Source of the DNA: Candidatus Vampirococcus lugosii
GTDB taxonomy: Bacteria > Patescibacteriota > Gracilibacteria > Absconditabacterales > Absconditicoccaceae
NCBI RefSeq assembly: GCF_018420025.1
Contig: NZ_JAEDAM010000074.1
Span: 1-6,230 of the forward strand
Length of the DNA stretch: 6,230 nucleotides
Direction: 5' to 3'
In this document: piece by piece, positions 1-6,230 of the stretch
Position numbering within the stretch: position 1 is the first letter of the stretch
Layout: each line of letters starts with the position of its first letter
Notes under the pieces: generated by a model
What the model saw: the letters and a program-made list of their open reading frames with translations, nothing else
Database searches by the model: none
Told to the model about the DNA's origin: nothing
Position numbers and translations under genes: made by a program

Positions 1-1
1 T

Positions 2-430
2 AAAATACCAGTGATAGTAAAAGAAAATAATTGGGTTCCAGTTAATAATACAAATAGTGATTGATCTTCATTTATTGTATTATGAGATAATAGTGAGATT
101 GTAAAAAAACAAGATGGAACAATCTTATCAGGTGATAGTTTGGATGATGTATTTGTTGAAGTGAATGAATATAATATGGAACAAGGTATTAGTCGAAAGA
201 CTTCATGTGTAAAGCTAATATCAGAAGAAGTTTGTAAAAATTTGGACCCAGATAATAATACAGTACTATTATATGATGATAACTGGAATAAACAGGGTAC
301 TTTAGAAGACTGTTATGAAGACGAGTTTACTTATGTTTTTGACACTGCATCTTTTAGTTTTCCTATCGATGACGACGATCCTATTTATGGAGATTATACA
401 CAATGACGGTTGGCTTGTATACGAAAATAG
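2..430 (+). CDS. hypothetical protein, 5'-truncated at window edge (C-terminal 142 aa)
   Basis: Frame 2 is open from base 2 to TAG 428-430 once TGA at 62-64, 83-85 and 404-406 is read as Gly. Track ORF 140..406 is only an internal piece (TTG pseudo-start, TGA pseudo-stop). The translation ends ...DTASFSFPIDDDDPIYGDYTQGRLACIRK*. It is acidic, has several Cys, and contains no domain I recognise. There is no in-frame ATG near the 5' end, so it presumably continues upstream of the window. Confidence 0.7.
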
Positions 431-444
431 AAAAAGTTTCTATT
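426..444 (+). terminator. weak AT-only hairpin overlapping the stop codon; possible terminator
   Basis: aatagaaa (426-433) and tttctatt (437-444) form an 8-bp perfect inverted repeat with a 3-nt loop, followed by a T-rich stretch (gtgtttcttaaattttt). All pairs are A:T, so stability is low. Such hairpins arise easily by chance in this composition. Confidence 0.2.
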
Positions 445-478
445 GTGTTTCTTAAATTTTTGGGCGAGTAAAAAATAT

Positions 479-718
479 TTATTTTGTAGTAGTGAGTATT
501 ATTGTGTTTTCTTTTGAAATTATGATTTTATTTGTAAGTTTATATAATTTATCATACATATTTTCTACATAATTAAAAATTTCTTGTTCAAAATTTTTTA
601 AATTTAACAATTCTTTTATATAATTCATTTTATTATATTTTATTAATTTTAAACTATTTAAACTTAATTTTAATACCTCCTTTATACATGTTTTTTTATA
701 AATTTCCACTAATTCCAC
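479..718 (-). CDS. doubtful small hypothetical protein (79 aa, Lys/Asn/Ile/Leu-rich)
   Basis: This is a track ORF with a GTG start at 718-716 and a TAA stop at 481-479, with no in-frame TGA. An alternative GTG at 709-707 lies 5 nt after AGGTGG. About 80 stop-free codons is non-trivial in DNA this AT-rich, and the sense strand is A-rich like the other genes. Against it, the sequence is low-complexity, the start is non-ATG, and nothing is recognisable. Confidence 0.3.
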   Translation of the reverse strand: MELVEIYKKTCIKEVLKLSLNSLKLIKYNKMNYIKELLNLKNFEQEIFNYVENMYDKLYKLTNKIIISKENTIILTTTK

Positions 719-834
719 CTTTTTTATTTATTGTTTTTATTATTTCTTAATTAACTTTTCAAAGTTTTTTTATCTTTATTACTGCATAAGATTAGGTTTT
801 TAATGTTATTATTACATTTTATATATTATTACTA

Positions 835-862
835 TTGAAAAAAAAATAATTATTTTTATAAT
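835..862 (+). promoter_or_regulatory. sigma70-type promoter candidate for the pilin-like gene
   Basis: TTGAAA (835-840), a 16-nt spacer, then a perfect TATAAT (857-862), ending 33 nt before ATG 896. AT-rich DNA yields many -10-like hexamers, so this is suggestive only. Confidence 0.4.
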
Positions 863-895
863 ACATATTGTTTATTTTTTATATAAAAATATATA

Positions 896-1354
896 ATGAT
901 TAAATTTATATTCAAATTTATATTACTTATTCTCTTTCCTTTTTTTTCGTTTTTTTCATTTTCTTATGCTCAAGATGATTGATGATGAGATACATGATGA
1001 TGAGATACATGAGATTGATGATGATGAGATACATGAGATTGATGAGGATGAGAATGTGATTGAATTGAATTAAATACTAATGTACCTTTTATTCGTAAAT
1101 GTCTAGAAAAAGAAAATGCTGATACTGCTTTTCCTAAGCTTATGGGATGATTATCAAAAATTGTAATTACTTTTACATTAGTAATAGCTTTTTTGATGGT
1201 AGTAGCAGGTTGAGTTTTGATTACTATGAGTTGAGCAGATCAATCAAACTTTTCAAAATGAAAAGAATTAATAATTAAAGTTATAGTATGAATAGTACTT
1301 TTGGGATCTTCATGAGTTATATTATATATGATAAATCCAAATTTCTTTTCATAA
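896..1354 (+). CDS. secreted TrbC/VirB2-like pilin (CPR 'type IV secretion system pilin' type) with N-terminal Gly/Asp/Thr repeat
   Basis: ATG 896, TAA 1352-1354, 152 aa, 22 in-frame TGA codons. Translation (TGA=G): MIKFIFKFILLILFPFFSFFSFSYA|QDDGGGDTGGGDTGDGGGGDTGDGGGGECDGIELNTNVPFIRKCLEKENADTAFPKLMGGLSKIVITFTLVIAFLMVVAGGVLITMSGADQSNFSKGKELIIKVIVGIVLLGSSGVILYMINPNFFS. It has a hydrophobic signal peptide with an SYA|Q cleavage-type site and a Cys pair. Two hydrophobic helices follow, joined by a short polar loop (SGADQSNFSKGKE). This matches the architecture and the 'aGGvl..sG......K..i...ivGl' pattern I recall for TrbC/VirB2-type pilins common in CPR genomes. The family call rests on pattern recognition, not a search. 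Confidence 0.75.
980..1057 (+). repeat. in-frame tandem repeat, (TGA)n-rich, encoding GGGDT / GDGGGGDT units
   Basis: tgatgatgagataca occurs at 980-994 and again at 995-1009 (identical 15-mers, each GGGDT). Next comes tgagattgatgatgatgagataca at 1010-1033 (GDGGGGDT). A diverged copy, tgagattgatgaggatgagaatgt, lies at 1034-1057 (GDGGGGEC). All unit lengths are multiples of three. Confidence 0.9.
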
Positions 1355-1382
1355 AAAATTTATAATTTAATAAAAAATCTTA

Positions 1383-1778
1383 ATGGAAATTAAAAAAATA
1401 GAAAATTGATATATTTTGACAAACAATATTTTTTATTCACATAATGAATGATTAGATTGATATATTAACCTTTATCAAAATATTGCTGAAGATTTTGTTT
1501 ATGGTAAATCTGATATAGTTAAAATAAATTATCCTTGAGAATATGATATTTCTGATATATACATAAAATGTATACAATCAAATATAAAACTTAATTATTA
1601 TGTAAAAAATGATCAAAATTCTTTTTGTATAATTCAATCTGAATCCGTTTTGGATAAAGATGAATTTCAAATTGCAGACTATATTTTAATATCAAATGAA
1701 ATAGAATCTTCTATAAAATTAAAAATGGAAAAAAATGAAATAAAATCTAAACTAATATTATTGGAAAATATAGTTTAA
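1383..1778 (+). CDS. hypothetical protein (131 aa), probably co-transcribed with the pilin-like gene
   Basis: ATG 1383, TAA 1776-1778, 4 in-frame TGA codons (the first at 1407-1409). It starts 28 nt after the pilin stop with no hairpin in between. Translation: MEIKKIENGYILTNNIFYSHNEGLDGYINLYQNIAEDFVYGKSDIVKINYPGEYDISDIYIKCIQSNIKLNYYVKNDQNSFCIIQSESVLDKDEFQIADYILISNEIESSIKLKMEKNEIKSKLILLENIV. There is no signal peptide or TM segment. The stretch PGEYDI...NYYV...(L)DKDEF..ADYILIS is faintly reminiscent of the central part of small MBL-fold (Lactamase_B_2/UPF0173-like) proteins, but the metal-binding His residues are absent. I do not assign a function. Confidence 0.65.
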
Positions 1779-1795
1779 ATATAAATTATCATAAC

Positions 1796-2326
1796 TCAAT
1801 CATTTTTGTCTATTTGAAAAATCTTATAATTTAGTTGATTTTTTTTAATAAATTCATATAATGTAGTCATCTTATCATTAAATTTAATTACATCATCTAG
1901 TAAAATTATTGAATTTTTATTAACAATTTTTAATACTAATTTCAAATACTTGTAGTAATCTGCTTTTTTTGCATCTATAAATACAAAATCTATTTCTCTT
2001 ATAACTTTTTTAAATGGAAATTTTAAAAAATCAAAGTTATATAGAACAATATTTTTTAGTTTTGATTTGTTTATATTGTCCAATGTCTGTTTATATGTAT
2101 TTTTAGATATTTCAAATCAATATATATTTCAATTTCGATTTTGTATAATAGATGCTTGAAGTATGATACTATATCAAATTGATGTTCATATTTCCAAACA
2201 ATTTTTGGGTTTATATGTGTTTAATAAGTTTACTATAAATTTTTCAGTATTATTACTAATGATCGGTATATTAAGTTTATTTGATAGATGTTTAATATTA
2301 TTTAAACAAGTTTTTTGGTAATTCAT
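1796..2326 (-). CDS. class I SAM-dependent O-methyltransferase, family 3 (caffeoyl-CoA OMT / YrrM-like)
   Basis: ATG at 2326-2324 (complement), TAA at 1798-1796, 176 aa. Track ORF 1796..2083 is only the C-terminal part. Four in-frame TGA codons (complement of 2117-2119, 2129-2131, 2174-2176, 2186-2188) extend it. Translation: MNYQKTCLNNIKHLSNKLNIPIISNNTEKFIVNLLNTYKPKNCLEIGTSIGYSIILQASIIQNRNGNIYGFEISKNTYKQTLDNINKSKLKNIVLYNFDFLKFPFKKVIREIDFVFIDAKKADYYKYLKLVLKIVNKNSIILLDDVIKFNDKMTTLYEFIKKNQLNYKIFQIDKND. It carries the SAM-binding motif I, LEIGTSIGYS, in which both Gly residues are TGA. It also carries the family signature FDFVFIDAdK..Y..Y......L...gii..DdV. Confidence 0.8.
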
Positions 2327-2358
2327 AATTTTAAAATTTAATTAATAAAATAAATATA
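2327..2358. promoter_or_regulatory. 32-bp, 100% A+T divergent intergenic spacer between the O-methyltransferase and RNase J start codons
   Basis: The sequence is aattttaaaatttaattaataaaataaatata. It contains the perfect palindromes AATTTTAAAATT (2327-2338) and TTAATTAA (2338-2345). TAAAAT (2346-2351) ends 7 nt before ATG 2359. No Shine-Dalgarno-like purine run is present on either side. Confidence 0.4.
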
Positions 2359-4224
2359 ATGTGAGAAATTTCACCAAATAGTAATGTAAATATAAATTTG
2401 AAGAAAAATATAAATGTAGAAAAAAAGAATAATATAAAAGTATCTACAAAAGTCAAGAAAAAAGAGTTCCCAGTAAGAATTTGAAGTTTATTATGATTAG
2501 AACAAGTTGGTCAATGTATATTTATTGAGTATAAAGATGATATAATAATTGTAGATGCAGGTATGGAATTTGCAGCAGATGAAATTTTGTGAGCAGATTA
2601 TTTAATTCCCGATATTACTTATTTGAAAAAGAATAAAAATAAAATTAAATGAGTAGTATTAACTCATTGACATCTTGATCATATATGAGCTTTGAGACAT
2701 ATATTACCAGAATTGGATTATCCTACTGTTTATACTACTCCATTGACTTTAGGAATAGTTAAGAAAACATTTAATAATGCAAGTGATGCAAATAAAGTAA
2801 AAAGTAAAATAGTAAATCCAGATAGTGATATAATCAAACTTTGATGTTTTAGTATAGAATTTGTTCCTGTAAATCATAATATTCCAGAAACTTTGGCATT
2901 AGCAATTCATACTCCAAAAGGTTTAATATTTAATTCTGCTGATTTCAAAATAGATTATACTCCAGCTATAGATAAACCAGCTGATTTATGAAAAATAGCT
3001 AGAATATGATTAGAATGAGTAAGATTATATATATGAGATTCTTTATGATCTGAAAGAAAATGATGGGCTATATCTGAAAAAGTTATTTGAGAAAATTTGG
3101 AAAATATAATAAAAAATGCTAGATCTAGAATAATACTTGCTACTTTTGCTTCAAATATCGGTAGGATAATACAAATAATTCAAAATGCTATAAAATATGA
3201 TAAAGTTATTTTTCTAGAATGAAGATCTATGATAAATAATGTAGAAATTTGTCAAAAACTTTGATATCTTGATGTTCCGAGATGATGTATTCGTAAATTA
3301 AGTGCTGATGTTGATAATATGCCACCTGATAGGGTTGTTATTCTTTCTACTTGAGCACAATGAGAAGAATTTAGTGGTTTGGCTAGGATATCAAGATGAG
3401 ATCATACAAGTTTTAAATTAAGAAGAGATGATACTGTTCTTATGTCTGCATCTACTATTCCTGGTAATGAACAGAGTGTATGAAAAATGCTTAATCATTT
3501 GGTAGTACAAGATATTAATTTAATTACAAATTCTGAACTTGATATTCATGCTTCTTGACATGGTTATCAAGAAGATCATAAACTTATGTTGAACTTGATA
3601 AAACCTGATTATTTTATGCCTTTTTATACAGATGCAAGACTTAGATATAATCATAAAAAAATTGCATTAGATATGGGTATGCAAGAAAAAAATATTTTGA
3701 TGCCTGCATTAAACTGAAGTGTTATAGAAATGTATGATGATGAAATTCTTATTTCAAAAGAAAAAATAGAGCTTGATACTGTTATGGTTGATGGTAAAGG
3801 AATATGACATCTTTCTGGTGAATATGTTATGAAAGCAAGAAAAATTATGTCAGAAAATTGAATTTTTGCTTTAATATTCAAAATTGATTCTATCAATAAA
3901 GAATTAGTTGGGAATATTCAAATAGAATCTAGAGGATTTGTTTATTCTTCAGAAGTTAAAAAAATTCATACTAATGTAGTAGAATTCGCCAAAAAAAGAT
4001 ATTATGAACTTTTGAAAAGAAAAATGTCTACTAAAGAAATATTAAAAAGTATAAAAGATGATTTATGAACATATTTATTCAAAATATTGTGAAGAAGTCC
4101 TATGATTATGCCAATGTTTGTTTATATAAATAGAGATGTTTCTTGAAATTATGATGATGATATAGATGCAGAAGATTCTTTAGTATGAATGACTCTAGAA
4201 GAACAAGGTTGAGATTACAAATAA
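2359..4224 (+). CDS. rnj: ribonuclease J (metallo-beta-lactamase / beta-CASP RNase), 621 aa
   Basis: ATG 2359, preceded by in-frame stops at 2326 and 2332. TAA 4222-4224. The reading frame is continuous with about 31 in-frame TGA codons and no TAA/TAG. Diagnostic segments (TGA=G) are: VRIGSLLGLEQVGQCIFIEYKDDIIIVDAGMEF; KGVVLTHGHLDHIGALRH (HxHxDH, 2662-2688); FVPVNHNIPETLALAIHTPKG; NSADFKIDYTP; YIGDSLGSERKG; VILSTGAQGEEFSGLARIS; DIHASGHGYQEDHKLMLNLIKPDYFMP; VDGKGIGHLSGEYVMKARKIMSENGIF; and IQIESRGFVY plus a C-terminal domain. Domain order and motifs match RNase J. The track does not show this gene at all, because TGA interrupts it every ~20 codons. Confidence 0.93.
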
Positions 4225-4250
4225 TTAAATTTAAGTTTATTTAATAAATA

Positions 4251-4286
4251 AAAAATCTACTTCAAATAAATAAGTAGATTTTTTTT
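4251..4286 (+). terminator. Rho-independent terminator of the RNase J gene (possibly bidirectional)
   Basis: aaaaatctactt (4251-4262) pairs perfectly with aagtagattttt (4272-4283) around the 9-nt loop caaataaat. The core stem is atctactt/aagtagat, followed by a run of T ending at 4286. It begins 27 nt after the stop codon. An A-run upstream mirrors the T-run. Confidence 0.8.
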
Positions 4287-4324
4287 GTTATGTGTTAAAC
4301 TCATCTTTGTAGAACAAAATTTAT

Positions 4325-4349
4325 AAATCCTTGATTTAGACAAGGATTT
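4325..4349. repeat. 9-bp perfect hairpin/inverted repeat in the non-coding region
   Basis: aaatccttg (4325-4333), loop atttaga (4334-4340), caaggattt (4341-4349). No U-tract follows on the + strand. Function is unknown. Confidence 0.6.
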
Positions 4350-4367
4350 GCTAGAAAATAAAAATAG

Positions 4368-4386
4368 ATTTATGTACTACATAAAT
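4368..4386. repeat. 19-nt palindrome atttatgta-c-tacataaat
   Basis: This is a perfect 9+1+9 inverted repeat read directly from the sequence. It lies 19 nt after the 4325-4349 hairpin. It could be an operator-like site or a chance AT palindrome. Confidence 0.5.
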
Positions 4387-4573
4387 TTTGTAATTTTATT
4401 TTAAAATAATTTATTTTCTATTTCTTTTTGATTTTCTTCAAGATAATGAATATATTTATTTAAATAAATACATAAACAATAAAAAACTATAATTTCTATT
4501 TACTACTACAGAATAAAACATTTTTTATTTACAAAATATTTTAGATTGTCTAAGATTGTTTTATAAAAAATAG

Positions 4574-4602
4574 TTGAAAAAAATATAAGTTTATATATAA
4601 AT
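4574..4602 (+). promoter_or_regulatory. sigma70-type promoter candidate for the membrane transporter gene
   Basis: TTGAAA (4574-4579), a 16-17 nt spacer, then TATAAA/ATAAAT (4596-4602), about 40 nt before ATG 4643. It is preceded by the direct repeat AGATTGT at 4543-4549 and 4553-4559 (10-bp register). Specificity is low in this composition. Confidence 0.3.
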
Positions 4603-4642
4603 TTTTTAAATTTAATTTTTTAATATATAAAATATTCCAAAA

Positions 4643-5812
4643 ATGTTGAACAAATTTAAAACAGATTATTCTCCTTTATATTTTTTAGCTTCTTTATGAG
4701 CTTGAGGTTTATCAGTAAGTTTTTTTATGTATCTTATGTTTTTGACAAAACATGAAAATACTCCTATACCAACTTTTGATAGTATTATGAGTGTTTTGCA
4801 AAGTTCAAATTTATTTATGCTTTTAATGATTGTTTTAGTTTATTTATTAATAACTATATTTGCTATAATTCATATCAAACTTTTGATAACGAATATCAAG
4901 AATTATATTTATTTTAAACAAACTCAATCTTTTTCAAAATTAAAAAATTCAAATGATGAAGTTATACTTATGAGTATTCCTCTTACCTTGACTATGACTA
5001 TGAATGTTTTATTTGTTGTTTCTACATTATCTATTCCTAATTTATGGTCTTTTATAGAATATATATTTCCTTTTGCTATATTTTGATTCTTAATTATATG
5101 ATTCTATGCTTTAAAAATTTTTTGAGATTATTTTACAAGATTAATAGTAAATTGAGATTTTGATTTTACCAAAAATAATTCACTTTCTCAGATGATATCT
5201 ATATTTGCTTTTTCTATGATTTGAGTTTGATTAGCTTGACCAGCTGGTATGTCAAATAATTTATTTACATCTTGATTTGCTATGTTTTTTTCTATACTTT
5301 TTATAGTTATTTCTATGTTATTAACTATAGTAAAACTTACTATTTGAATAGAATCTATATTTAAAAAATGATTAAATATTCAAGCTTCGCCTTCTTTATG
5401 GATTATGATTCCTATTCTTACTCTTTGGTGAATAACTTTTATTAGACAAGAACATTGAATATCTACAAATTTTAATTTTCATACTCCAGAAGTTGTTTTA
5501 TTTTATATAAGTTCTGTAATTATATCATTACAAATTATATTTTGATTATTGTGATATAAAGTTATGAAAATTAATAAATATTTTAAAACATTTATTTCTT
5601 GATCTGAAAAATCTCCTGCTTCTTATGCACTTATATGTCCATGAGTTGCATTTGTTGTATTTGGTTTTTTCTTCTTACATAAAGGTTTAGTTTTGAATTG
5701 AATAATAGAGCAATTTAGTGTGATTTATTTTGTAATATTATTTTTATTGTTTATATTGCAAATTAAAACAATAATTGTTATGTTTAAATTAAATAAAAAA
5801 ATGATAGGTTAA
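4643..5812 (+). CDS. polytopic membrane protein, TehA/SLAC1-like (tellurite-resistance/dicarboxylate transporter, TDT family) candidate, 389 aa
   Basis: ATG 4643, with an in-frame TAA at 4628-4630 just upstream. TAA 5810-5812. There are 19 in-frame TGA codons, and track ORF 4727..5086 is an internal fragment. The protein starts MLNKFKTDYSPLYFLASLGAGGLSVSFFMYLMF and shows about ten hydrophobic segments. Segments resembling TehA-type landmarks from memory: N-terminal Y-F-x-x-x-(L/M)-G-x-G-G-L; ...DEVILMSIPLTLTMTMNV (cf. 'sp.rfsf.alip.ttm'); ...ASPSLWIMIPILTLWG; and SPASYALICPGVAFVV near the C-terminus (cf. 'lWaFsFPlga'). The membrane-protein call is solid. The family call is tentative. Confidence 0.85.
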
Positions 5813-5818
5813 ACCTTA

Positions 5819-5880
5819 AGTAGATTCTATATTATTTTTTTGATAAACTCCATTTATCGAAATCAAAAATATAATCTACT
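5819..5880. repeat. long imperfect AT-rich inverted repeat in the convergent intergenic spacer
   Basis: The outer arms agtagatt (5819-5826) and aatctact (5873-5880) pair perfectly. Further pairing is atatt (5829-5833) with aatat (5868-5872), and ttgat (5840-5844) with atcaa (5862-5866), with bulges, around a ~17-nt loop. It lies 7 nt after the transporter stop. No clean U-tract follows on either strand, so this is not a canonical terminator. Confidence 0.5.
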
Positions 5881-5969
5881 CATCAATCATTAAATTTTAT
5901 AAAATGATTTCAATCCATTTTTGAATAATTCTTTTTCTCACATATACAAATAATTTATCATTGATAATA

Positions 5970-6230
5970 TTAATGATTTCCCAAATCTTCTCAGATCATT
6001 TTTTTCCCGCCCGGGCGGGAAAAATCAACTACTCCTAATTTATATAAACTATTATTTGAAATAATAAATCTATTTTTCCAATTTATTTTATACAAAAAAA
6101 GATATTGTCTAATAATATCTCTAGTTTGGGATGACAAAGATTTCCAAGTAGTTTTATTTGAACTAATTCTATAATAATAATAAAATCAAAATTGTAATTT
6201 ACGAAGTTTTTTAATCTTTTTTTTCAAATT
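5970..6230 (-). CDS. hypothetical protein, 5'-truncated at window edge (C-terminal 86 aa)
   Basis: The minus-strand frame starting at 6230 is open for 86 codons (2 TGA as Gly) up to TAA at 5972-5970. That is unlikely by chance at this AT content. Translation: NLKKKIKKLRKLQFGFYYYYRISSNKTTWKSLSSQTRDIIRQYLFLYKINWKNRFIISNNSLYKLGVVDFSRPGGKKMIGEDLGNH*. I do not recognise the family. Confidence 0.6.
6001..6024. repeat. 24-nt perfect palindrome TTTTTCCCGCCCGGGCGGGAAAAA with a 14-nt all-G/C core
   Basis: The core cccgcccgggcggg (6006-6019) is its own reverse complement. It is flanked by a T-run (5999-6005) and an A-run (6020-6024). It lies inside the minus-strand CDS, encoding S-R-P-G-G with the codons tcc cgc ccg ggc ggg. 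Confidence 0.95.

What the first reader, a model, noticed from the sequence alone, without database searches (positions are those of the whole stretch)
1..6230. The whole window is recoded: UGA is read as glycine (translation table 25), so the supplied standard-code ORF track is fragmentary and misleading
Reading TGA as sense turns short scraps into long, motif-bearing proteins, and the TGA positions fall on residues that are invariant Gly in well-known families. In RNase J these are THGHLDHIGA (TGA at 2668-2670 and 2686-2688), HASGHG (3556-3558), STGAQGE (3352-3354 and 3361-3363) and VDGKGIGH. In the O-methyltransferase it is SAM motif I, LEIGTSIGYS (complement of 2186-2188 and 2174-2176). 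In the membrane protein it is SLGAGGLS (4697-4699 and 4703-4705). Trp is still written TGG (for example NNWVP, GWAIS, SLWIM). Every inferred CDS ends in TAA or TAG. By hand count there are roughly 85 in-frame TGA codons, which is about two thirds of the Gly codons in RNase J. UGA=Gly is the published code of Absconditabacteria (SR1) and Gracilibacteria. That places this fragment in those uncultivated, host-dependent CPR lineages. It also means any standard-code or code-4 annotation of this contig will be wrong.
Basis: partly seen in the sequence, partly recalled or inferred. Interest (0 to 1): 0.75.

Follow-up and report, generated by a model that had tools for sequence, protein, structure and literature searches.

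The report
Known UGA-to-glycine recoded Vampirococcus contig

Summary
Under the standard code the window has only five ORFs of 60 aa or more and is 22% coding. With TGA read as sense it holds seven genes and is 86% coding. There are 86 in-frame TGA codons, and every gene ends in TAA or TAG. TGA means Gly, not Trp. In RNase J, Gly is the commonest residue at 21 of 28 alignable TGA columns across 141 distant homologues, and in TsoY at 15 of 19 columns across 117 homologues. Trp is essentially absent at these columns. Scoring all 20 amino acids puts Gly first by 42–65 bits and Trp below neutral. In 19 relatives the same columns carry 227 TGA, 251 GGN and 0 TGG codons.

It is not new. All seven translations exactly match NCBI proteins of Ca. 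Vampirococcus lugosii (phylum Absconditibacteriota) on a 6230-bp contig. The 2021 genome paper states UGA=Gly and used table 25.

Table 25 is probably incomplete here. In this clade CGA/CGG exchange with TGG and not with AGA/Lys, as Shulgina and Eddy predicted in 2021. Four window codons are affected, and the deposited proteins show Arg there. The tRNA-Gly(UCA) and RF2 checks cannot be done on this contig.

The parts
2..430 (+). g1: 3' end of a gene cut by the contig edge (142 codons, stop TAG). It has 3 in-frame TGA and 3 of the window's 4 CGA/CGG codons.
   Evidence: The ORF appears only when TGA is sense. It matches NCBI 'hypothetical protein, partial [Ca. V. lugosii]' P0391, and the only differences are the three positions I masked as X. 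Its only homologues are V. lugosii paralogues.
896..1354 (+). g2: 152-aa secreted or membrane protein with a signal peptide, a Gly/Asp/Thr-rich linker and two hydrophobic helices. It has 22 TGA codons and a weak, sub-threshold similarity to T4SS pilin.
   Evidence: Exact match to MBS8122335.1. PF18895 gives 19.4 bits against a cutoff of 26.6, and only with TGA=Gly. The C-terminal 100 aa are conserved upstream of RNase J in 15 relatives, where the well-aligned TGA columns carry only TGA or GGN apart from a few Ala/Ser/Asn.
980..1060 (+). TGA-rich tandem repeat inside g2 (periods 15, 24 and 39) that encodes the Gly-rich linker. It holds 16 TGA in 28 codons.
1383..1778 (+). g3: 131-aa conserved hypothetical protein with 4 TGA codons.
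   Evidence: Exact match to MBS8122336.1. Orthologues sit between g2 and RNase J in 13 relatives. TGA columns aa 9 and aa 52 carry only TGA or GGN in relatives, with one exception.
1775..2326 (-). g4: 183-aa class I SAM-dependent O-methyltransferase. All 5 of its Gly codons are TGA and it has no GGN. It holds one CGA codon.
   Evidence: Methyltransf_3 scores 55.3 bits with Gly and 40.3 with Trp. Exact match to MBS8122338.1. In 16 relatives its TGA columns carry 29 TGA, 33 GGN and 0 TGG.
2135..2137 (-). CGA codon (g4 aa 64), probably read as Trp rather than Arg.
   Evidence: The aligned codons in 16 relatives are CGA 7, CGG 1, TGG 7 and TAT 1, with no AGA/AGG/CGY.
2359..4224 (+). g5: 621-aa ribonuclease J (metallo-beta-lactamase, beta-CASP and C-terminal domains) with 31 TGA and 15 GGN codons.
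   Evidence: The neutral translation aligns full-length to B. subtilis RNase J1 3zq4 at E 1.7e-105. TIGR00649 scores 462.9 with Gly, above the 400 cutoff, and 394.7 with Trp, below it. It is 100% identical to MBS8122337.1.
3064..3066 (+). The only TGG (Trp) codon in RNase J (aa 236). It gives the reciprocal evidence for CGA=Trp.
   Evidence: The aligned codons in the relatives are CGA 8 and TGG 6 (7 counting the window), plus CCA 3, CCT 1 and TTC 1. In 141 standard-code homologues the column is F 35, Y 32, H 24, R 10, W 9.
4643..5812 (+). g6: 389-aa polytopic membrane protein of the TsoY family (Cys form) with 19 TGA codons.
   Evidence: NF047644 matches over its full length (1-378 of 378) at 503.3 bits with Gly and 435.4 with Trp. 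Gly is the majority residue at 15 of 19 TGA columns in 117 homologues. Exact match to MBS8122339.1.
5636..5647 (+). TGT-CCA-TGA-GTT, encoding C-P-G-V. This is the site equivalent to the 'UxxV' selenocysteine motif of selenoprotein TsoY.
   Evidence: Cys is found in 117 of 117 homologues and the TGA column is Gly in 117 of 117. The motif comes from PMC13188914.
194..196 (+). CGA codon in g1 (aa 65). Meaning not resolved individually.
   Evidence: The paralogues show R in table-25 translations, and their codons are not visible to me.
407..409 (+). CGG codon in g1 (aa 136). Meaning not resolved individually.
422..424 (+). CGA codon in g1 (aa 141). Meaning not resolved individually.
5970..6230 (-). 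g7: 86-codon partial ORF that runs off the right end. It is annotated in the deposit, but its coding status is doubtful.
   Evidence: Exact match to MBS8122340.1 'hypothetical protein, partial'. It has no family hit, a low-complexity sequence, and contains the GC palindrome.

Best explanation
The window is the whole of a 6230-bp contig of the published Candidatus Vampirococcus lugosii genome. This organism belongs to the Absconditabacteria (SR1), is an epibiotic predator of Halochromatium, and has a genome of very low GC. In it UGA is a sense codon for glycine, and in this window UGA is the main glycine codon (86 of 120). Termination uses only UAA and UAG. Read this way, the contig holds seven genes: a paralogous surface-protein fragment, a pilin-like membrane protein, a conserved hypothetical, an O-methyltransferase, RNase J, a TsoY-family membrane protein, and a doubtful partial ORF. 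What is shown here is the meaning of UGA, the gene content, and the identity of the contig. The mechanism is inferred from the literature on this clade and was not tested here. In that account a tRNA-Gly with anticodon UCA decodes UGA and release factor 2 has been lost, after AT mutational pressure had made UGA rare. The same AT pressure would then favour UGA over the GC-richer GGN codons.
For: Coding density rises from 22% to 86% and the longest ORF from 119 to 621 aa when TGA is sense. Shuffles give at most 145 codons. In three solved standard-code RNase J sequences, 15-17 of the 27 aligned TGA positions are Gly and none is Trp. For B. subtilis the binomial p is 1e-11. In 141 distant RNase J representatives (32-45% identity, Trp-inflated sequences removed), Gly is the commonest residue at 21 of 28 TGA columns, against 28 of 538 other columns (Fisher p 4e-19). 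Pooled, Gly is 62% of residues at TGA columns against a 7.8% background, and Trp is 5 of 3913. Scoring all 20 amino acids against that profile gives Gly 681, Ala 616, neutral X 601 and Trp 584 bits. In TsoY, Gly leads at 15 of 19 TGA columns against 11 of 367 others (p 7e-17), and the scores are Gly 554, Ala 512 and Trp 483 bits. Curated models agree: RNase_J_b_CASP 138 (Gly), 112 (Trp), 119 (X); Methyltransf_3 55 against 40; TIGR00649 463 against 395; TsoY_fam 503 against 435. At DNA level, the window's RNase J TGA columns carry 227 TGA, 251 GGN and 0 TGG codons in 19 relatives, and TGA plus GGN stays near 45 per gene while the split runs from 40/7 to 0/49. The same holds in g2, g3 and g4 (66 TGA, 80 GGN, 0 TGG). 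With TGA=Trp the proteins would be 5.5% Trp and 2.0% Gly, and the methyltransferase would have no Gly at all. All seven translations exactly match NCBI V. lugosii proteins on a 6230-bp contig. The genome paper states UGA=Gly and used Prodigal table 25.
Against: No tRNA gene lies in the window and none of its seven genes matches a release-factor family, so the decoding machinery is not shown here. No tRNA(UCA) was found in about 300 kb of relatives' flanks, but only 12 tRNAs were present there. About a quarter of TGA columns are not Gly in outgroups: Ser, Asn, Ile or Ala in RNase J, and Ala or Met in TsoY. This fits lineage-specific substitutions, because the relatives keep TGA or GGN at most of those columns, but it means not every single TGA is individually proven. 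One Pfam model (Lactamase_B) scored 2 bits higher with Trp than with Gly. Ambiguous or context-dependent decoding cannot be excluded from sequence alone.
Confidence: 0.97

Rival explanations
1. UGA is read as tryptophan (translation table 4), as in Mycoplasmatales and several insect endosymbionts.
For: Table 4 gives the same ORF boundaries and coding density as table 25. Many public predictions of these genes were made this way. My first profile ranked Trp second, and the Lactamase_B model slightly preferred Trp.
Against: The Trp ranking was an artefact of two TGA=Trp mistranslated sequences in the profile. After removing them Trp scores below the neutral X, at 584 against 601 bits. Trp occupies 5 of 3913 residues at RNase J TGA columns and 2 of 2223 at TsoY TGA columns. 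Relatives never have TGG at these columns, in 0 of 696 non-gap codons. Under this reading Trp content would be 5.5%, and RNase J would fall below its curated family cutoff.
Confidence: 0.01
2. The code is standard, and the in-frame TGAs are pseudogene lesions, selenocysteine codons, programmed readthrough sites or assembly errors.
For: g6 belongs to a family that NCBI names '(seleno)protein'. The genome came from whole-genome amplification of a few cells.
Against: There are 86 in-frame TGAs in 1704 codons across seven genes, placed on invariant Gly columns. The same positions alternate between TGA and GGN in 19 independent assemblies. The Sec-equivalent position in TsoY is an ordinary TGT Cys, and the nearby TGA falls on a column that is Gly in 117 of 117 homologues. 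No in-frame TAA or TAG lesions accompany the TGAs.
Confidence: 0.005
3. Table 25 is right for UGA but does not describe the full code. CGA and CGG are also reassigned, from Arg to Trp, so four residues in this contig are mistranslated in the public record. This refines the main explanation and does not replace it.
For: Shulgina and Eddy predicted CGA/CGG to Trp for Absconditabacteria. The window's CGA in g4 aligns with CGA 7, CGG 1, TGG 7 and TAT 1 in relatives, and never with AGA, although AGA makes up 27 of the window's 38 Arg-box codons. The window's TGG in RNase J aligns with CGA in 8 relatives, in a column that is mostly aromatic in outgroups. Across 14 gene families, the aligned partners of CGA/CGG are TGG 32%, Phe/Tyr 13%, AGA/AGG 3.5% and Lys 2.6%. 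For AGA/AGG the partners are Lys 40% and TGG 0.5%. All four TGG/CGA combinations occur at the two columns, even among close relatives, so the switches are repeated events. One CGR aligns with the conserved Trp of M. jannaschii NMNAT and one with Tyr in Listeria MltG.
Against: Only one window codon (g4) is supported directly. The three in g1 have no informative homologues. The outgroup check is mixed: one CGR aligns with Arg in archaeal NMNAT and others fall in poorly aligned regions. No V. lugosii tRNA could be examined. The source paper itself says only experiment can establish this decoding.
Confidence: 0.7

Closest known systems
[quoted passage not shown] 2013, Rinke et al. 2013, Hanke et al. 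2014)
   Same: UGA is read as Gly, UGG stays Trp, and termination uses UAA/UAG only. The genome is low-GC and reduced, and the lineage is a host-dependent CPR group. The window's organism is a named member of this group, and its genome paper used this table.
   Different: Nothing differs for UGA. TGA use is at the high end for the clade: 72% of Gly codons in the window, against 0-85% in the relatives' RNase J genes, and the share falls as GC rises (Spearman rho -0.71).
Extended Absconditabacteria code predicted by Codetta (Shulgina and Eddy 2021, PMC8629427): UGA to Gly plus CGA/CGG to Trp
   Same: CGA/CGG are rare here (4 against 8 TGG in the window) and exchange with TGG across relatives.
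   Different: This code is not part of table 25 or of the deposited annotation, which shows Arg. For V. lugosii itself the support is one codon plus one reciprocal column. It is not confirmed by experiment in any member of the clade.
Translation table 4 (UGA=Trp; Mycoplasmatales, Hodgkinia, Zinderia, Nasuia and others)
   Same: The same codon is recoded and the same ORF structure results. These genomes are also low in GC. RF2 loss is reported for such lineages.
   Different: The amino acid differs. The column tests exclude Trp here.
Ribonuclease J (B. subtilis RNase J1, PDB 3zq4; TIGR00649)
   Same: The alignment is full-length across the metallo-beta-lactamase, beta-CASP and C-terminal domains, with the HxHxDH motif intact (THGHLDH).
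   Different: There is an N-terminal Lys/Asn-rich extension of about 40 aa and a C-terminal acidic tail of about 30 aa that the solved proteins lack. Two thirds of its Gly residues are written as TGA.
TsoY family (seleno)protein (NF047644; selenoprotein form NF047643, motif UxxV)
   Same: It matches the family model over its full length at 503 bits against a cutoff of 150, and the C/U-x-x-V site is conserved.
   Different: This is the Cys form. It scores 81.6 bits against the selenoprotein model, whose cutoff is 250. No other Tso-family gene was recognised among the window's genes. Its function is unknown.

Membership tests
UGA=Gly lineage (translation table 25; Absconditabacteria / BD1-5) | Conserved genes are interrupted by in-frame UGA and become full-length when UGA is sense | tested here: met
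   Density rises from 22% to 86%. RNase J (621 aa) and TsoY (389 aa) match their families over their full length.
UGA=Gly lineage (translation table 25; Absconditabacteria / BD1-5) | UGA positions align with Gly in homologues from standard-code organisms | tested here: met
   Gly is the commonest residue at 21 of 28 columns in RNase J and 15 of 19 in TsoY. Gly is the best of 20 amino acids by 65 and 42 bits.
UGA=Gly lineage (translation table 25; Absconditabacteria / BD1-5) | UGA is not used for termination | tested here: met
   All 7 CDSs end in TAA or TAG.
UGA=Gly lineage (translation table 25; Absconditabacteria / BD1-5) | tRNA with anticodon UCA and glycine identity elements | not testable with these tools
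   There is no tRNA in the window and none with UCA in the relatives' flanks. The rest of the V. lugosii assembly could not be reached. The literature reports this tRNA for the clade.
UGA=Gly lineage (translation table 25; Absconditabacteria / BD1-5) | Absence of release factor 2 (prfB) | not testable with these tools
   This needs the whole genome, and absence from a 6 kb contig says nothing. The supplements of the genome paper held no match.
UGA=Gly lineage (translation table 25; Absconditabacteria / BD1-5) | Phylogenetic affiliation with the recoded clade | tested here: met
   The proteins are identical to Ca. V. lugosii proteins, and its lineage is phylum Absconditibacteriota. The nearest RNase J homologues are named Absconditabacterales or SR1, and the g2-g3-g4-RNase J gene order is shared with the complete SR1 RAAC1 genome.
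UGA=Trp (translation table 4) | UGA positions align with Trp in homologues | tested here: not met
   Trp is 5 of 3913 and 2 of 2223 residues at TGA columns, and the Trp translation scores below neutral.
Extended Absconditabacteria code (CGA/CGG=Trp) | CGA/CGG exchange with TGG, not with other Arg codons or Lys, among clade members | tested here: met
   The aligned partners of CGA/CGG are TGG 32%, against AGA/AGG 3.5% and Lys 2.6%. The AGA/AGG controls have Lys 40% and TGG 0.5%. The two window-relevant columns show the same pattern.
Extended Absconditabacteria code (CGA/CGG=Trp) | CGA/CGG align with conserved Trp in standard-code homologues | tested here: inconclusive
   One CGR aligns with Trp (NMNAT), one with Tyr (MltG), one with Arg (a variable NMNAT site), and others are poorly aligned. 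The RNase J column is aromatic in outgroups.
Extended Absconditabacteria code (CGA/CGG=Trp) | tRNA(UCG) or tRNA(CCG) with Trp identity elements | not testable with these tools
   No such tRNA lies in the window or in the fetched flanks.
RNase J (TIGR00649) | Score above the curated cutoff, with the metallo-beta-lactamase, beta-CASP and C-terminal domains present | tested here: met
   462.9 bits against a cutoff of 400, and all three Pfam domains are found.
TsoY family (NF047644) | Full-length match above the curated cutoff | tested here: met
   503.3 bits against a cutoff of 150, covering profile positions 1-378 of 378.
Selenoprotein TsoY (NF047643) | Score above the equivalog cutoff and Sec at the UxxV motif | tested here: not met
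   81.6 bits against a cutoff of 250, and the site is Cys (TGT).

The most novel reading that the evidence does not exclude
Vampirococcus lugosii uses a code with three reassignments: UGA to Gly, plus CGA and CGG to Trp. If so, even the deposited table-25 annotation of this contig is wrong at four residues (for example g4 residue 64, Arg to Trp), and by extension at many sites genome-wide. Trp would then be written with three codons, two of them taken from arginine. This was predicted computationally for the clade in 2021, but it is absent from NCBI's tables and has not been tested by experiment.
Probability: 0.7. Interest if true: 0.4.

Novelty: already known. Interest (0 to 1): 0.18.

Why it matters
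For UGA=Gly itself there is nothing new. The organism, its code and this contig's annotation were published in 2021, and the code has been known since 2013. The practical point is real, though. Large public protein collections still hold table-4 (TGA=Trp) versions of these same genes. These can contaminate profiles and push true family members below curated thresholds. Here RNase J drops from 463 to 395 bits against a cutoff of 400. The CGA/CGG observation matters a little more. It gives independent codon-level support for a sense-codon reassignment that has been predicted but not experimentally confirmed, in a clade that current annotation pipelines treat as plain table 25.

Tried and rejected
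1. My first 'standard-code' RNase J profile ranked Trp second. The cause was two TGA=Trp mistranslated sequences among the representatives. I rejected that profile and rebuilt it.

2. The top 120 homologues could not be used for the column test. They all come from the recoded clade, and 73 are Trp-inflated.

3. An exact-protein lookup of the source contig found nothing, so the rest of the genome could not be reached.

4. Scanning 19 relatives' flanks for tRNA(UCA) found none, but only 12 tRNAs were present, so this is uninformative.

5. The primary paper by Campbell et al. 2013 is not in the held library. A search of the genome paper's supplements for tRNA or release-factor terms found nothing.

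6. g1's paralogues could not resolve its three CGA/CGG codons.

7. Rfam found nothing credible in the AT-rich intergenic regions. Promoter-like sites were no more frequent than in shuffles.

8. I considered a phage or contaminant origin and rejected it. The genes are cellular, their order is shared with a complete SR1 genome, and the proteins are identical to V. lugosii entries.

9. GTDB's class name 'JAEDAM01' may derive from this organism's assembly. I could not confirm that, so I do not claim it.

10. I prepared 20 full-length variants for a Pfam scan but did not submit them. Local scoring against a profile of distant homologues answered the same question.

Full report
WHAT THE WINDOW IS

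The window is 6230 bp at 21.8% GC. Translated with TGA as glycine, its largest ORF is 100% identical over 621 aa to the NCBI protein 'ribonuclease J [Candidatus Vampirococcus lugosii]', whose longest recorded contig is 6230 bp. The other six translations also match NCBI/RefSeq entries of the same organism on a 6230-bp contig. Five match exactly: MBS8122335.1, MBS8122336.1, MBS8122338.1, MBS8122339.1 and MBS8122340.1. The sixth, g1, matches P0391, and the only differences are the three positions I had masked. So the window is one entire deposited contig. NCBI places the organism in phylum Candidatus Absconditibacteriota.

CHECK OF THE OBSERVATION

Under table 11 there are only five ORFs of 60 aa or more. 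The longest is 119 aa and coding density is 22%. With TGA as sense, ORFs of 621, 389, 183, 152, 142 and 131 aa appear and density is 86%. Making TAG sense changes nothing, and making TAA sense gives only short scattered ORFs.

In 300 composition-preserving shuffles the longest TAA/TAG-bounded ORF averaged 79 codons, with a maximum of 145. The probability of 621 random codons free of TAA/TAG at this composition is about 4e-22.

The total is 86 in-frame TGA codons against 34 GGN. RNase J has 31 TGA and 15 GGN. All seven CDSs end in TAA or TAG.

WHICH AMINO ACID: TESTS THAT ARE NOT CIRCULAR

The closest database homologues come from the same recoded clade, so I built reference sets from outside it.

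(a) Solved structures. I aligned the neutral translation (TGA=X) to three solved, standard-code RNase J sequences. Of the 27 aligned TGA positions, 17, 16 and 15 are Gly and none is Trp. For B. subtilis J1, which is 9.4% Gly, the binomial p is 1e-11.

(b) Distant RNase J representatives. I used 141 representatives at 32-45% identity. Gly is the commonest residue at 21 of the 28 alignable TGA columns, against 28 of 538 other columns (Fisher p 4e-19). Trp is 5 of 3913 pooled residues.

(c) Scoring every possible meaning. Substituting each of the 20 amino acids at all TGAs and scoring against that profile gives Gly 681 bits, Ala 616, neutral X 601 and Trp 584.

(d) TsoY as an independent gene. 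The membrane protein g6 belongs to the TsoY family and has 52-56% identical homologues in Campylobacterota and Bacillaceae. Gly is the majority residue at 15 of 19 TGA columns, against 11 of 367 other columns (p 7e-17). Trp is 2 of 2223 residues. The scores are Gly 554, Ala 512 and Trp 483 bits. Two of the window's three TGG codons in g6 fall on columns that are Trp in 116-117 of 117 homologues.

(e) Curated models. These agree. RNase_J_b_CASP scores 138 (Gly), 112 (Trp) and 119 (X). Methyltransf_3 scores 55 against 40. TIGR00649 scores 463 against 395, with a cutoff of 400. TsoY_fam scores 503 against 435. One generic model, Lactamase_B, preferred Trp by 2 bits.

(f) Composition. With TGA=Trp the proteins would be 5.5% Trp and 2.0% Gly, and the methyltransferase would contain no glycine at all, not even in SAM motif I.

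DNA-LEVEL EVIDENCE FROM RELATIVES

A scan of one genome per species returned 19 loci from Absconditabacteria-type genomes, including the complete SR1 RAAC1 chromosome, and about 30 from standard-code bacteria. In the 19 relatives' RNase J genes, TGA plus GGN stays near 45 per gene while the split runs from 40/7 to 0/49. At the window's 31 TGA columns the relatives carry 227 TGA, 251 GGN, 0 TGG and 72 other codons. The 32 standard-code genes carry Gly at 65% of non-gap positions and never Trp.

The gene order g2-g3-g4-RNase J is conserved in the relatives. The TGA columns of g2, g3 and g4 show the same exchange: 66 TGA, 80 GGN and 0 TGG. The TGA share of Gly codons falls as GC rises (Spearman rho -0.71, p 5e-4, 20 genomes). 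This is what AT mutational pressure on synonymous codons would produce.

WHAT COULD NOT BE TESTED

The decoding machinery is not visible here. The contig has no tRNA gene, and none of its seven genes matches a release-factor family. No tRNA(UCA) lay in the relatives' flanks, where only 12 tRNAs were found. The rest of the assembly could not be reached. The mechanism therefore rests on the literature for the clade: a tRNA-Gly(UCA) with glycine identity elements, and loss of RF2.

A REFINEMENT: TABLE 25 IS PROBABLY INCOMPLETE HERE

Shulgina and Eddy (2021, PMC8629427) predicted that Absconditabacteria also read CGA and CGG as Trp. The window has four such codons: 194-196, 407-409 and 422-424 in g1, and the complement of 2135-2137 in g4. 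It has eight TGG codons.

At the g4 position, 16 relatives carry CGA (7), CGG (1), TGG (7) and TAT (1). None carries AGA, although AGA makes up 27 of the window's 38 Arg-box codons. In the reciprocal case, the only TGG in the window's RNase J (3064-3066) aligns with CGA in 8 relatives, in a column that is F/Y/H/W in most standard-code homologues.

Across 14 orthologous families from the window and the 19 loci, the aligned partners of CGA/CGG are TGG 32%, Phe/Tyr 13%, AGA/AGG 3.5% and Lys 2.6%. The AGA/AGG controls pair with Lys 40%, CGY 9% and TGG 0.5%. All four TGG/CGA combinations occur at the two columns, even among close relatives, so the switches happened repeatedly.

The outgroup checks are mixed. 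One CGR sits opposite the conserved Trp of archaeal NMNAT, one opposite Tyr in MltG, and one opposite Arg at a variable NMNAT site. g1's three codons could not be resolved.

I put the probability that CGA/CGG are Trp in this organism at about 0.7. The deposited proteins show Arg at these positions.

GENE CONTENT

- g1 is the 3' end of a V. lugosii-specific paralogous family. Other members carry a pilin-type N_methyl domain or a FISUMP domain.
- g2 is a signal-peptide protein with a TGA-rich repeat that encodes a Gly-rich linker. It has sub-threshold similarity to T4SS pilin.
- g3 is a conserved hypothetical protein.
- g4 is an O-methyltransferase.
- g5 is RNase J.
- g6 is the Cys form of TsoY. 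Its C-P-G-V site corresponds to the UxxV selenocysteine motif of the selenoprotein form. The Cys is TGT, and the Gly two codons later is a TGA.
- g7 is a doubtful partial ORF that contains a 14-nt all-GC palindrome.

VERDICT

The finding is already known, so interest is low. The residual value is twofold. Public databases hold TGA=Trp mistranslations of these exact genes. And there is independent support for the additional CGA/CGG reassignment, which has been predicted but not tested by experiment.

Noticed in passing
window 2359-4224 and 4643-5812 (proteins P0002, P0271): Logan-derived database entries for RNase J and TsoY differ from the NCBI table-25 proteins only by Gly to Trp at all 31 and all 19 TGA codons, so they are table-4 mistranslations of the same genes. 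Of the 120 closest RNase J homologues, 73 are similarly Trp-inflated. Two such sequences contaminated my first profile. With Trp, RNase J drops below the TIGR00649 cutoff.
   Followed up: yes
window 194-196, 407-409, 422-424 (+) and 2135-2137 (-): These are four CGA/CGG codons. In the clade these codons exchange with TGG, not with AGA or Lys, which fits the published prediction that they encode Trp. The deposited proteins show Arg at these positions.
   Followed up: yes
window 5636-5647: In TsoY the site equivalent to the selenocysteine motif UxxV reads Cys(TGT)-Pro-Gly(TGA)-Val. The family's Sec position is an ordinary Cys codon, and a Gly-coding TGA lies two codons downstream.
   Followed up: partly
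window 4643-5812: g6 is 52-56% identical to TsoY proteins of Campylobacterota and Bacillaceae, which is unusually close for a CPR gene. No orthologue was found in the 19 relatives' RNase J flanks, although Absconditabacterales and Gracilibacteria copies exist elsewhere. Horizontal transfer is possible, and the 19 TGA codons suggest long residence in this lineage.
   Followed up: no
window 980-1060: A TGA-rich tandem repeat (periods 15, 24 and 39) inside g2 encodes a (GGGDT)-like linker, with 16 TGA in 28 codons. The linker is not conserved in the relatives' orthologues.
   Followed up: partly
window 1775-2326: The methyltransferase gene has no GGN codon. All five of its glycines, including those of SAM motif I, are written TGA.
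   Followed up: yes
L002 10001-11911 (OZ246420.1, 38% GC): This relative's RNase J has 0 TGA and 49 GGN, yet its flanking genes still need TGA as sense. Across 20 genomes the TGA share of Gly codons falls as GC rises (rho -0.71).
   Followed up: partly
window 1-430: The left contig end lies inside a multi-copy, V. lugosii-specific gene family. Its members share an invariant 'GSSFxVLGDNSEIVKKQDGT' module with pilin-like and FISUMP-domain proteins. This is probably why the assembly broke here.
   Followed up: partly
window 5999-6024: A perfect 14-nt all-GC palindrome (CCCGCCCGGGCGGG, 6006-6019) is flanked by T7 and A5 in a 22% GC contig. It looks like a bidirectional terminator, yet it lies inside the annotated partial ORF g7, which adds to the doubt that g7 is coding.
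   Followed up: no
window 431-895 and 4225-4642: Two long intergenic regions at 14% GC have no Rfam match. The first holds an unannotated 79-codon ORF on the minus strand (479-718) with no TGA and no Gly codon. After RNase J there is an AT-rich hairpin followed by a T-run at about 4253-4286.
   Followed up: no
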